Assembly: GCF_009914755.1 (NCBI RefSeq)
Contig: NC_060929.1
DNA: 64,000 nt
Strand: one strand, 5' to 3'
DNA from: the human T2T-CHM13v2.0 reference genome, Homo sapiens
Shown: positions 8,071-16,986 of the stretch, piece by piece
Layout of the letters: the number at the start of each line of letters is the position of its first letter
Position numbering within the stretch: position 1 is the first letter of the stretch
Program-made: the position numbers and the translations under genes
Notes under the pieces: generated by a model
The model's input: only the letters and a program-made list of their open reading frames with translations
What the model was told of the DNA's origin: nothing
Database searches by the model: none

Positions 8071-9183
8071 TGAATATAGGGGGAATTTTGAAAAATCCAC
8101 AAATATATGGAAATTAGCATGCTCCTCAACAACCAATAGGTCAATGAAATTAAAAGGGAAATTAAAAATCTTTAGATAACAAGATAAAAATCTTGTTATC
8201 TTAAGATAAACAAAAATGGAAACACAACATAGCAAACATATGGGATACAGCAAAAACAGTTCAAAGAGGAACGTTTATAACAATAAATGTCTACATCAAA
8301 GAGAAGAAAGATTTAAAATAAATAAGCTAATGTCATACCTCAAGGAAACAGAAAAAGAAGAATAAACTAAGCCAAAGTTAGCATAAGAAAGGAAATAATA
8401 AAAATCAGAGCAGAAATAAATGAAATAGAGACTAGAAAAACAATACAAAAGATAGATAAAATAAGTTCTTTTTTGAAAAGATGAACAAATTTGACAAACT
8501 AGATTAATTTAAAAAAAAGAAGATTCATAATACCACAAAAATACAAAAGATCATCAGGGACTATCATCAACAATTATACATCAACAAATTGGATAACTAA
8601 GAAGAAGTGGTTAAATTCTTCTGTTCATTTAGGTCCTGTAAAGTGTTTCTGTAAAGTGTTGTTCAAGTTGAATGTTTTCTTATTAATTTTCTGTCTGGAT
8701 GATCTTCCAGCATTGAAAGTGAGGTATGGAAGTTTTCTACTGTTATATTGCAATCCATCAGATCCTGTGGATCTGAAGAAAGAGATGGGTTGCAATACAA
8801 TATTTACATATTGTATAAATATAAATATCTGTTTTATATGTTTAGGTTCTCCAAAGCATACAACATACAAAGACTGAATCATAAAGAAATGGAAAATCTG
8901 AACATACCAATAATGAGTAAAAAGATTGAATCTGTAATAAAAGTTCTCCCATTAAAAAAAAAAAAAAAAAAGCAGAGGACTTGATGGCTTCATGGCTGAA
9001 TTCTACCAAACATTTATTTTTTATTTTTCCTCACTGTCACCATTTTTATTCAATATAATACTGAAAGTCCTAACGATAGCAATTAGGCAAGACAACAAAA
9101 TAAATGGCATTCAAATTTAAAGGGAAGAGGTCAAGTTATTCTTGCTTTTAAACAACATGAACTTATATTTAGAAAAAAATGTA

Positions 9184-9483
9184 GGCTGGGCATGGTGGCT
9201 CATGCCCATAATCCCAGCACTTTGGGAGGCCAAGGAGGGTGGATCACCTGAGGTTAGGAGTTTGAGACCAGCCTGCCCAACATGGGGAAACCCCATCTCT
9301 ACTAAAAATACAAAACTTCACTGGGCGTGGTGGTGCACGCCTATAATCTCAGCTACTCAGGAGGCTGAGGCAGGAGAATTGCTTGAACTTGGGAGGCTGA
9401 GGTTGCAGTTAGCCAAAATGATGCCACTGCACTTCAGCCTGGGCGACAGAGCAAGACTCTGTCTCCAAAAAAAAAAAAAAAAA
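9184..9483 (+). mobile_element. Alu (AluS)
   Basis: GGCTGGGCATGGTGGCTCA...poly-A. Confidence 0.93.
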
Positions 9484-14237: not shown

Positions 14238-16986
14238 CCAAACATTTAAAGTAGAGCTAATACTAATCATTCTCAAACCCTTCCAAAAAATTGAAAAGGA
14301 GGGAATACTTTCAAATTCTTTTTACAAGGCCAGTGTTATCCTGATATCAAAGCCAAAGAAGCACATTACAAAAAAAGAAAACTACATGCCAACATTCTTG
14401 ATGAACATGGTGAACATAGATACAAAAATCTCAACAAAATAGTTGCAAACTGAACAACCCATTAAAAGTATCATCTACCACGATCAAATGGGATTTATTC
14501 CTGAAATGCAAGGATGGTTCAACACAAATCAATAAATATGTTGTATGAGATTAACAGAATGAATGACAAAAACTATATGATCATCTTGTTAGATGCAGAA
14601 AAACATTTGACAAAGTTCAACAACATTTCAAGATAAAGACTCTCACCAAGTTAGGTACAGAAGAAAAGTAACTTGACACAATAAATGCCACATATGAGAA
14701 GTCCACAGCTAACATTACACCCACCAGTGAAAAATTGAAAGCCTTTTATTTAAGCTCTGGATCAAGACAAAAATGCCCACTTTTGCCACTTTTATTCAAC
14801 ATAGTATTGGAAATTCTTGCCAGAGCAATTAGGCAAGAAAAAGAAATGAAAGGCATTAAAATAGAAAGGGAAGAAGTGAAAATGCCTGTGTTTGCTGGTG
14901 ACACAATCTTATATGTAGAAAACCCTACAGACTCCACCAGAAAACTGTTAGAACTAATAAATGAATACTGTAAAATTGTAGAATATAAAATAAACACTAA
15001 AAAGTACATTTCCATAAACTAACAATGAACTATGTGAGAAAGACATTAAGAAAACAATCACATTTTCAATAACTACAAAAATATTTAGGAATAAATTTAA
15101 CCAAGAAAGTTAAAGACCTGTACATTGCAAATTATGAAACATTGATGAGAAATTGAAGAAGACATAAACAAATGGAAAGGTATCCCTTGTTCATGGATTA
15201 GAAGAAAATATTGCTAAAAAGTCCATACTACCACAGTGATCTAGAGTTTTAATGCAATCTTTATCAAAATTCTAACATCATTTTTCAAAGAAATAGAAAA
15301 AAATCTTAAAGTTCATATGGAATCACAAAAAAACCCAAATGGCTAAGGCAATCATGGGCAAAAAGAACAAAGCTGGAGGTGTTACTCTGCCTGATTTTAA
15401 ACTATACTACAAAGCTATAGTAATTAAAACATCATGATCCTGGCAAAACAATAGACCCATCAACCAGTGGAACAGAATAGAGAGCCCAGAAATGCACCCC
15501 ACATATATGGTCGATTGGTTATTTTTGCAAGGTTGCCAAGAATACACAATGGGGAAAGGATAGTCTCTTTAATAAATGGTATTGGGAAAACTGGATATCC
15601 ACATGCAAAAGAATTAAATAGGACCCTTATCTAGCATTGTATATAAAAATCTACTCAGAATGGGATGAAGCCTTAAGCATAAGACCAGAAACTGAAAAAT
15701 TAATTGAAAAAAATCTAAGGGAAAAACTGTATTTTTCTAGGTGGGGATTTTTTGGATCTGACTCCAAAAGTGCAGGCAACAAATGCAAACATAGACAAAT
15801 GGGATTACAACAAACTGAAAAGTTTCTGCATGGCAAAGGAGACAATGATCAGTTTTCAGAGATGTACAGATTGGGAGAAAATATTTATAAGTCATACATT
15901 CAAGAAGAAGCTAATATCAAAAATATATATGGAGCTCAAACAACTCAATAGCAAGAAGACAAAAAACCCAATAAAAAATTGGCAAAATACCAGGAAAGGG
16001 AGTTGGAAGTAAAGTAAAAATAAAAAATGGGCAAGAGACCTGAGTAAACATTTCTGAAGAGAAGACATGCAAATGGCCAATAGATACGTAAAAAAAGTGC
16101 TCAACATTGCTAATCATTAGAGAAATGCAAATTAAAATCACATTGAGTTATCATCTCACACCTGTCAGAATGGCTATTATCAAAAAGACAAAAGGTAACA
16201 AGCATTGGTATGGATGTGGAAAAAAGGGAATCCCTGTACACTTGTACACTTGGTAGGAATGTAAATTAGTACAGCTCTTATAGAAAACTGCATGGAGGTT
16301 TGTCATAAAACTTAAAAAAATTATCATATGATCTAGCAATCCTACTTTTGGGTATTTACAAAAGTAAATGTTCATTTTAGCACTATTCACAATAGCCAAG
16401 TTATAGAATCAACCTAAGTGTCCCTCAACAGATGAATGGATAAAGAAAATGTGGTGTGTGTACACAATGGAATAGTATTTAGCCTTAAAAAGGAGGAAAT
16501 TCTGTCATTTATGACAACATAGATGGAATTGGAAAACATTATGTTAAGTTAAATAAACCAGGCACAGGAAGACAAATAGCACGTGTTCTCACTTATATGA
16601 TGTAAAACAATCGAACTTGTAGAAGCAAAGTAGAATGGTGGTTACAGAGACTGGGGTAATAGGGAAATAAAGGTCAAAGGGTACACAATCTCAGTTAGCA
16701 GAAATATATTTTGAATTCTATTGTACAGCGTGGTGAATATAGTTAAATTGGGGTATCATACATTTCAAAATTGCCAAAAGTAAATTTCAATTTTCTTTGC
16801 CACAAAAAATGTTAAATATTTTAGGTGATAGATATGTTAACTGGCTTGATGAAATTATTTCACATTGTATTGAGAAATCATAACATCACTTTGTACCCCA
16901 TAAATTTATACAATTATAAATTGTCAATTTATAGTTATAAAAAGAAATGCAAGCTAAAATAATACTTTATTGTTTTTCTTCTCCAG

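What the first reader, a model, noticed from the sequence alone, without database searches (positions are those of the whole stretch)
9006..14247. L1-retroposed MaLR (MST) read-through transcript with a ~1.35 kb 3' transduction
Seen in sequence: (1) The host L1 ORF2 breaks at 9015 and resumes at 14248, with CCAAACATTT duplicated at 9006-9015 and 14238-14247 and followed by AAAG, a TTT/AA endonuclease-type site. (2) A T tract (9016-9028), i.e. minus-strand poly(A), abuts the left TSD. (3) A minus-strand AATAAA (9050-9045) lies 16 nt before that tail. (4) On the minus strand the insert reads partial MST LTR, internal region, PPT, full LTR, then unrelated antisense L1 (~1.35 kb after removing later Alus). 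(5) The 5' LTR has no U3. Aligned to the intact LTR, it begins ~29 nt downstream of the TATA-like TTTTAAAG (12211-12204), where a TSS is expected. (6) One possible extra G sits at the 5' junction (C at 14237) and may be cap-derived, which is speculative. Established: integrase-made MaLR proviruses have two full LTRs and ~5-bp TSDs, and L1-made processed ERV copies are known for HERV-W. Inference: an MST provirus inside an L1 elsewhere was transcribed, skipped its LTR poly(A) signal, used a cryptic antisense L1 signal, and was mobilised in trans by L1. This would be a fossil map of the MST TSS and a route for LTR-promoted transduction of flanking DNA. Standard repeat annotation would show only unrelated fragments.
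Basis: partly seen in the sequence, partly recalled or inferred. Interest (0 to 1): 0.8.

Follow-up and report, generated by a model that had tools for sequence, protein, structure and literature searches.

The report
L1-made copy of an MST transcript
An old LINE-1 fragment in an intron of the human C7 gene carries a copy of an RNA that started in the promoter of an MST (MaLR) retroelement, ran past the element's end into neighbouring DNA and was pasted here by the LINE-1 machinery, a route so far described mainly for the HERV-W family.

Summary
CCAAACATTT flanks the insert on both sides. The host L1 is continuous across it. A 13-nt T-rich tract abuts the left repeat, and the target reads TTT/AAAG. 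The only antisense AATAAA in 1,361 nt of the carried L1 lies 16 nt before the tail.

On the minus strand the insert reads R-U5, internal region, full LTR, then about 1.36 kb of a second, unrelated antisense L1.

New evidence:
- The carried L1 is only 68-77% identical to the host L1, so it is not a local duplicate.
- Its junction with the LTR is an integrase-type junction. At least 14 other loci carry THE1/MST insertions at the same L1 site.
- A second, canonical MST processed copy exists at G000:C3:37375689-37377946 (R-U5, internal, U3-R, A-rich tail, 12-bp repeats). Its 5' end lies about 5 nt from this one's. Both lie 24-29 nt from the start of the TATA-like box.
- 28 of 31 other MST elements keep U3; two could not be judged.

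No source locus was found. Best matches were 78%, and only 40 of about 13,000 candidates were scored.

Verdict: an L1-mediated retrocopy of an LTR-initiated read-through MST transcript (about 0.85). It is a new member of a known kind and moderately interesting.

The parts
9006..9015 (.). Left copy of the target-site duplication CCAAACATTT (possibly 11 bp, including the A at 9016)
   Evidence: identical to 14238-14247. Present once in the homologous L1 copies.
9016..9028 (-). Degenerate poly(A) tail (ATTTTTTATTTTT on the + strand)
   Evidence: 11 T of 13; no homology to L1 at this position.
9045..9050 (-). AATAAA poly(A) signal on the antisense strand of the carried L1, 16 nt before the tail
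   Evidence: the only TTTATT in 1,361 Alu-stripped bases. Chance placement is about 1.5%.
9029..11657 (-). Transduced flank: antisense fragment of a second L1 ('L1 B', ORF2 region equivalent to host L1 14778-16114). It is interrupted by four + strand Alus (about 9184-9483, 10166-10504, 10505-10834, 10835-11132).
   Evidence: 67.6-76.7% identity to the host L1; best genome matches are 78% and end at the junction.
11658..12368 (-). Complete MST 3' LTR (U3-R-U5, TG...CA ends) with an Alu at about 11882-12176. The bypassed ATTAAA signal lies at 11732-11727.
   Evidence: aligns end to end with the LTRs of other MST elements.
12204..12211 (-). TATA-like box TTTTAAAG in U3 of the 3' LTR
   Evidence: the TTTAAAAG-type motif is kept at this column in most of the aligned MST LTRs.
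12369..14021 (-). MST internal region, including the PBS-side and purine-rich tract-side ends
   Evidence: 74-78% identical over its full length to many MST internal regions..
14022..14237 (-). 5' LTR reduced to R-U5. Its first base (14237) marks the inferred transcription start.
   Evidence: aligns to the second half of the 3' LTR (83.5%, 177 of 212). There is no U3 and it abuts the right repeat.
14238..14247 (.). Right copy of the target-site duplication, followed by AAAG (TTT/AA-type L1 endonuclease site)
14248..16600 (+). Host L1 ('L1 A'), continuing from 9015. The approximate right limit is taken from the alignments.

Best explanation
An MST (MaLR) provirus once sat, antisense, inside an L1 at another locus. 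It had been put there by an integrase at the L1 site ...ATCA|CTAAT|CATCAG.

RNA polymerase II started at the 5' LTR's own start site, about 25-30 nt after the TATA-like TTTAAAAG. It transcribed R-U5, the internal region and the whole 3' LTR. It did not use the LTR's ATTAAA signal. It ran about 1.36 kb into the antisense L1 and was cleaved and polyadenylated 16 nt after the only AATAAA there.

The L1 machinery then used this roughly 3.6-kb RNA in trans. L1 endonuclease nicked CATTT/AAAG in the ORF2 region of an older L1 in what is now C7 intron 4. The T-rich end primed on the poly(A) tail, and the full-length cDNA was fixed with a 10-11 bp target-site duplication. Five Alus are now inside it.

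Shown: the duplication, the tail, the signal, the nick-site type, host L1 continuity, the missing U3, the foreign L1, and the concordant 5' end of a second copy.

Inferred: the source locus, the promoter use, and the timing of the Alu insertions.
For: - A 10-bp exact duplication sits at the exact break of a continuous host L1.
- A T-rich tract that is not L1-derived abuts the left copy.
- The target reads TTT/AAAG.
- The single antisense AATAAA in 1,361 nt lies 16 nt before the tail, about 1.5% by chance.
- The carried L1 is 68-77% identical to the host L1, against 83.5% between the insert's two LTRs.
- The L1|LTR junction ends exactly at the LTR's terminal CA, next to CTAAT. This is the same junction and 5-bp duplication seen in 8 of 9 solo LTRs at this L1 site elsewhere.
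- The 5' end lies at about nt 29 from the start of the TATA-like box.
- It also lies about 5 nt from the 5' end of an independent MST copy, L077. That copy has R-U5 ... U3-R, an A-rich tail and 12-bp duplications.
- A random 5' truncation landing within +/-5 nt of that point in a 3,633-nt RNA has odds of about 0.3% (lengths).
- Of 31 other MST elements, 28 keep U3, 2 are unresolved and only L077 lacks it.
Against: - No source locus was found. The best junction-spanning loci are 66-75% identical over the L1 part. The best MST-internal and L1 B matches are 78%.
- Only 40 of 12,635 and 40 of 13,994 candidates were scored in those searches, so a surviving source could have been missed.
- The tail is short and interrupted.
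- The 3' LTR's ATTAAA is intact today, so the read-through is unexplained.
- Whether the Alus entered before or after retroposition cannot be told.
- No outgroup genome could be checked.
- The match of the 5' end to a start site rests on a TATA-like motif and one sibling copy, not on CAGE coordinates.
Confidence: 0.85

Rival explanations
1. It is an L1-mediated retrocopy, but of a longer RNA that started upstream of the MST (a host-gene or L1-driven read-through transcript). It was 5'-truncated during reverse transcription, and the truncation happened to fall at the LTR position expected for a start site.
For: 5' truncation is common in L1-mediated copies (general knowledge). Of the nine LTR-plus-poly(A) loci fetched, L083 and L084 begin at the first base of a full U3, so they were not LTR-initiated. 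L110 starts inside the internal region.
Against: The end falls about 29 nt from the start of the TATA-like box and about 5 nt from the 5' end of the independent copy L077. The odds of that by chance are about 0.3% (lengths).
Confidence: 0.08
2. A DNA-level event captured a piece of another locus (L1 B plus part of an MST provirus) into the host L1, for example as filler DNA at a double-strand break or by replication template switching. The flanking repeat and the T tract are then coincidental.
For: No source locus and no RNA evidence are available. The tail is only 13 nt.
Against: The 10-bp exact duplication, a T tract on the correct side, a TTT/AA nick site, the AATAAA 16 nt before the tail and a 5' end at a start-site position all fit target-primed reverse transcription together.
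Confidence: 0.04
3. An ordinary integrase-made MST provirus inserted here, followed by deletion of U3 and local duplication or rearrangement of the host L1.
For: The 3' LTR is complete and its junction with L1 is integrase-type.
Against: L1 B is not derived from the host L1 (68-77% identity). The host L1 is intact at 16110-16115, where the MST would have had to sit. The outer repeats are 10 bp, not 5 bp.
Confidence: 0.02

Closest known systems
HERV-W processed pseudogenes (L1-made copies of proviral transcripts; criteria as quoted from Pavlicek et al. 2002 in PMC5016936, passages read)
   Same: The 5' LTR is reduced to R-U5. There is a poly(A) tail, a TT/AAAA-type insertion site, and a target-site duplication within the 5-15 bp range.
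   Different: The family is MaLR/MST, not HERV-W. The 3' LTR is complete (U3-R-U5) and is followed by 1.36 kb of flanking DNA, instead of ending at the LTR's own poly(A) site. The sibling copy L077 does have the canonical U3-R end.
3' transduction by L1 and SVA elements (general knowledge)
   Same: The element's own poly(A) signal is bypassed and a downstream signal in flanking DNA is used. The flank is carried between the element and the tail, all inside one target-site duplication.
   Different: The transcribed element is an LTR retroelement driven by its LTR promoter and is mobilised wholly in trans. The source locus, which normally proves a transduction, was not found.
Ordinary processed pseudogenes, and 'retro-DNAs' (DNA-transposon-derived retrocopies, PMC11195612; passages read)
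   Same: A polyadenylated pol II transcript that is not a LINE or SINE is copied by L1, with long duplications and a tail. That paper names HERV-W as the LTR example.
   Different: Here the template is a MaLR unit-length RNA plus flank, and its 5' end marks the element's own promoter.
Canonical MaLR (MST) provirus made by an ERV-L-type integrase
   Same: The internal region, the LTR sequence and the TG...CA ends of the 3' LTR are the same. The inner junction with L1 B carries the CTAAT half of a 5-bp duplication.
   Different: The 5' LTR has no U3, the outer repeats are 10-11 bp, and there is a poly(A) tail. Of 31 other MST elements, 28 show the canonical 5' LTR.

Membership tests
L1-made processed copy of an LTR-element transcript (HERV-W type) | 5' LTR begins at R (no U3) | tested here: met
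   the element starts at 14237, aligned to about nt 188 of the 403-nt 3' LTR, with the repeat directly upstream.
L1-made processed copy of an LTR-element transcript (HERV-W type) | 3' LTR ends at R (U3-R), at the LTR's own poly(A) site | tested here: not met
   the 3' LTR is complete to its terminal CA and is followed by 1,361 nt of antisense L1. This makes it a read-through variant. The sibling L077 meets this feature.
L1-made processed copy of an LTR-element transcript (HERV-W type) | Poly(A) tail at the 3' end | tested here: met
   a 13-nt tract, 11 of 13 T on the + strand, not L1-derived. It is short and degenerate.
L1-made processed copy of an LTR-element transcript (HERV-W type) | TT/AAAA-type insertion site and a variable 5-15 bp target-site duplication | tested here: met
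   a 10-11 bp duplication. In the insert's orientation the site reads TT/AAAT.
3' transduction | Flanking DNA lies between the element's end and the tail, with a poly(A) signal just before the tail | tested here: met
3' transduction | An identifiable source locus where the element is followed by the transduced sequence | tested here: not met
   15 other loci share the junction, but they are 66-75% identical in the L1 part. The best matches anywhere are 78%. Only the top 40 candidates per search were scored.
Integrase-made MaLR provirus | Two complete LTRs and a 5-bp target-site duplication | tested here: not met

The most novel reading that the evidence does not exclude
MaLR (MST, perhaps THE1) transcripts were recurrently copied by L1 in trans during primate evolution. 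Two of 32 examined full-length MST elements, counting this one, are such copies. HERV-W would then not be the only LTR group with L1-made copies. The 5' ends of these fossils record the ancestral MST start site, which present-day RAMPAGE data show only as a dispersed signal. LTR-promoted read-through was a route for moving flanking DNA.
Probability: 0.5. Interest if true: 0.55.

Novelty: new member of a known kind. Interest (0 to 1): 0.42.

Why it matters
The abstract of a 2017 review (PMC5537654, passages read) calls HERV-W the sole HERV group specifically mobilised by L1. My searches turned up no paper that describes L1-made MaLR copies.

Two clear MST examples show that another, far more abundant LTR superfamily also fed the L1 machinery. 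One is canonical and one carries a 1.36-kb read-through flank.

Such copies are natural full-length cDNAs. They fix the start and poly(A) sites of a promoter family that still drives many host transcripts. A 2026 RAMPAGE study reports that MST start sites are now broad and dispersed (PMC12963367, passages read).

They also warn annotators that a U3-less LTR, an internal region, a full LTR and a stray antisense L1 can be a single insertion event.

The effect on C7 is probably nil, because the insert is intronic, antisense and old.

Tried and rejected
- **Source locus.** Four DNA searches and one pattern search of the window's own genome found no locus above 81% identity over 175 nt, or above 78% over 500 nt or more. 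Junction-sharing loci proved to be independent insertions.
- **Local duplicate of the host L1.** Rejected.
- **Genome-wide screen for LTR-plus-poly(A) ends.** The pattern ATTAAACCTCTTT...A11 gave 27 matches at about 17 distinct places, against 10 for the reversed control. Nine places were fetched.
  - None gave a clean target-site duplication.
  - L083 and L084 start at the first base of U3.
  - L085 and L110 start inside the internal region.
  - L107, L108, L109 and L111 hold LTR parts only.
  - L106 (C1:7975370-7977870) has U5, the internal region, U3-R and a 15-A tail, but its 5' end lies outside the stretch fetched.
  - A search for the 14-mer that follows L106's tail found no second copy nearby (37 matches, one of them on that stretch).
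  - This screen therefore neither adds to nor subtracts from the case.
- **Papers that could not be read.** Smit 1993, Pavlicek 2002 and Deka 1988 (the last recalled as reporting a preferred THE1 target site) are not held. What they say about MaLR start sites, retrocopies or target sites was not seen.
- **Primate orthologues and CAGE coordinates.** No tool was available. Supplementary Fig. 9C of PMC12963367, which may show MST start-site positions, was not seen.
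Full report
**What is in the sequence**

The window is human chr5, inside the C7 gene. The insert lies upstream of the exon at 16987-17042 and is antisense to C7.

A + strand L1 ORF2 fragment (the host, 'L1 A') runs to 9015 and resumes at 14248. CCAAACATTT is present at 9006-9015 and at 14238-14247. The next base is A on both sides, so the repeat is 10 or 11 bp.

Two unrelated L1 copies, L023 and L063, cover both flanks, and they do so next to each other. An in-silico empty site aligns with them collinearly across the join. 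L063 reads GAATTCTACCAGGTATTTAAAGAA where the host reads GAATTCTACCAAACATTT|AAAGTA. The 10-mer therefore occurs once in this L1 family. It was duplicated here, and nothing else of the host was lost.

**Marks of the L1 machinery**

- Directly after the left repeat comes ATTTTTTATTTTT (9016-9028), 11 T of 13. At the equivalent L1 position the host L1 and L055 read AAGACAAAAAT and AAAACAAGGAT, so the tract is not part of the carried L1.
- The right repeat is followed by AAAG. In the insert's orientation the target reads TT/AAAT, close to the TT/AAAA consensus.
- TTTATT at 9045-9050 (AATAAA on the minus strand) ends 16 nt before the tail. It is the only such hexamer in the 1,361 Alu-stripped bases of the carried L1. 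The chance that a single hexamer falls 10-30 nt before the tail is about 1.5%.

**Anatomy of the insert on the minus strand**

| Part | Coordinates | Length |
|---|---|---|
| R-U5 | 14237-14022 | 216 nt |
| Internal region | 14021-12369 | 1,653 nt |
| Complete LTR | 12368-11658 | 403 nt without its Alu |
| Antisense fragment of a second L1 ('L1 B') | 11657-9029 | 1,361 nt without four Alus |

Together these make an RNA of about 3,633 nt.

L1 B covers the ORF2 stretch that equals host coordinates 14778-16114, but it is only 67.6-76.7% identical to it. The insert's two LTRs are 83.5% identical (177 of 212; K2P 0.195).

The LTR distance corresponds to roughly 44 My at 2.2e-9 per site per year. 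This figure is an inference and depends on the rate. It dates the source provirus, not the copy. It fits the MST activity periods given in PMC10735291 (passages read; section 11 read).

**The inner junction is an integrase junction at a recurrent site**

I searched the window's own genome with the junction and with a 24-nt degenerate pattern allowing up to 3 mismatches. The pattern gave 74 matches, against 2 for the reversed control.

Of the 30 matches cut out as loci, 16 (including the window itself) carry a THE1- or MST-type LTR end (TGTATTAG...) directly after L1 ...ATCACTAAT. The other 44 matches were seen only as 24-letter strings and were not classified.

Of the 15 foreign loci:
- Nine are solo LTRs of about 360-750 bp, after which the L1 resumes at host coordinates 16106-16115. 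Eight of these show the 5-bp duplication CTAAT or a one-base variant. L042 has a small deletion there.
- Six show no L1 resumption within 1.5 kb. Five of them continue into an internal region.

The LTRs belong to different subfamilies, and the L1 parts are 66-75% identical to L1 B. These are therefore independent integrations into one L1 site, in one orientation, and none is the source.

Levy et al. (PMC2836564, passages read) counted 12,190 MaLR-in-L1 nestings. They reported MaLR insertion hotspots and a T-N9-A target motif around a 5-bp duplication. The site here (T CA CTAAT CA T) fits the A/T-interchangeable form of that motif. For the finding in hand, this means CACTAAT|TGTATTAGG was made by an integrase when an MST entered an L1.

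**No source locus**

The best non-self matches were as follows:

| Query | Best non-self identity | Candidates scored |
|---|---|---|
| Across the junction, about 175 nt | 81% | 40 of 4,544 |
| MST internal region plus R-U5 | 78% | 40 of 12,635 |
| L1 B plus LTR; every L1 hit stops at the junction | 78% | 40 of 13,994 |

A surviving source should be at least about 84% identical. It is either gone or was not among the candidates scored.

**The 5' end and a sibling copy**

Aligned to its own 3' LTR, the element's first base falls about 21 nt after the G of TTTTAAAG. This is with the Alu at about 11882-12176 and one copy of its roughly 13-bp duplication left out. The position is about the 29th nt from the first T of that box.

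Among the 11 genome loci most similar to the internal region, one is itself a processed copy: L077 (G000:C3:37375689-37377946, minus strand).
- It is 2,234 nt long.
- It starts at GCATAGCTCTCTCTTGC with no U3.
- It has a normal U5, internal region and U3.
- It stops 15 nt after ATTAAA at an A-rich remnant (GTGTTAAAAAGTA).
- It is enclosed by an exact 12-bp repeat, AATAATTTAACA.
- Its two R copies are 83.3% identical.
- It is 76% identical to the window's element, so it came from another source.

Its first base lies about 5 nt upstream of the window copy's first base, measured against the shared TCTTGC anchor. It lies about 16 nt after the G of its own ATTAAAAG. Two independent L1-made copies therefore begin within about 5 nt of each other, 24-29 nt from the start of the TATA-like box. 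For a 3.6-kb RNA, a random truncation within +/-5 nt of a given point has odds of about 0.3%.

As a control, I examined the 5' LTRs of 31 other MST elements (11; 20 more):
- 28 have U3 directly upstream of R.
- 2 (L102, L103) have an Alu at or just before the TATA-like box, so U3 could not be judged in the 290 nt fetched.
- Only L077 lacks U3.

Both processed copies start with a G that does not match the aligned base of their own 3' LTR. This is compatible with a cap-derived G but proves nothing.

**Mechanism**

I conclude that an MST provirus sat antisense in an L1 at the recurrent CTAAT site. It was transcribed from its 5' LTR start site and read through the ATTAAA of the 3' LTR (11732-11727, still intact). 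The RNA was polyadenylated at a cryptic antisense-L1 AATAAA and was copied into the host L1 by L1 endonuclease and reverse transcriptase in trans.

The steps shown and the steps inferred are listed under the best explanation. The rivals are listed with their odds: truncation of a longer RNA, DNA-level capture, and an in-situ provirus with rearrangement.

**Comparison with what is known**

The criteria for HERV-W processed pseudogenes are R-U5 at the 5' end, U3-R at the 3' end, a poly(A) tail, a TT/AAAA site and 5-15 bp repeats (PMC5016936, passages read). All are met except the U3-R end, which is replaced by a complete LTR plus flank. That is the logic of an L1/SVA 3' transduction, but without an identified source. 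L077 meets all five criteria.

In the literature I could search, HERV-W is called the sole HERV group mobilised by L1 (PMC5537654, abstract), or the LTR example of it (PMC11195612). Three full-text searches found nothing on MaLR processed copies:
- MaLR + processed pseudogene + LINE-1
- processed pseudogenes + endogenous retroviruses + generated by LINEs
- LTR retrotransposon / processed pseudogenes / R-U5 / U3-R / L1-mediated

Smit 1993, Pavlicek 2002 and Deka 1988 are not held and may bear on this.

I therefore rate the finding as a new member of a known kind. Any polyadenylated pol II RNA can be copied by L1, so the mechanism holds no surprise. The MaLR example, the read-through flank and the concordant fossil start sites are still useful.

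**Limits**

- No repeat library, outgroup genome or CAGE track was available.
- Genome searches score only the top candidates.
The 5' end of a further candidate, L106, therefore remains unseen, and the poly(A)-end screen stayed inconclusive.

Noticed in passing
window 11650-11665; also L041, L042, L044-L049, L052, L054-L056, L059, L064, L068: The L1 ORF2 site ...ATCA|CTAAT|CATCAGAG is a recurrent MaLR integration site. Fifteen other loci carry THE1- or MST-type LTRs at exactly this base, all antisense to the L1. Eight of nine solo LTRs keep the 5-bp duplication CTAAT or a one-base variant. Levy et al. 2010 (PMC2836564) describe MaLR hotspots and a T-N9-A motif in general; whether they list this site was not seen.
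   Followed up: partly
L077 = G000:C3:37375689-37377946 (minus strand): A canonical L1-made processed copy of an MST transcript: R-U5, internal region, U3-R, an A-rich tail remnant, and an exact 12-bp target-site duplication AATAATTTAACA. It is 2,234 nt long.
   Followed up: yes
window 10159-11143: Three + strand Alus lie head to tail. Each is followed by the same L1-derived word (AAGAACATACATTGG at 10159 and 11128, AAGAACATACACTCGG at 10819), and a partial copy ...ATACATTGG lies at about 10497-10508. Either Alus inserted repeatedly into the regenerated target next to a poly(A) tail, or an Alu-plus-duplication unit was tandemly amplified. The Alus are 85-86% identical over 125 nt.
   Followed up: no
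L106 = G000:C1:7975370-7977870: An MST element with U5, the internal region (with a roughly 300-bp insertion), U3-R and a clean 15-A tail right after the LTR's poly(A) site. It is a further candidate processed copy, but its 5' end lies just outside the stretch fetched and no flanking repeat was found.
   Followed up: partly
L083 = G000:C5:101460700-101463220: A THE1-type LTR inside a sense L1 ends at its own poly(A) site with a 12-A tail, and U5 is missing. One possible reading is an L1-initiated transcript that ended early at the LTR's signal and was then retroposed.
   Followed up: no
window 14790-14797 and 9045-9050: Both the host L1 and the carried L1 have TTTATT at the same ORF2 position (CACTTTTATTCAAC and CATTTTTATTCAAT), whereas L055 reads CACTCCTATTCAAC. 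Some old L1 subfamilies therefore carry a ready-made antisense AATAAA at this spot.
   Followed up: no
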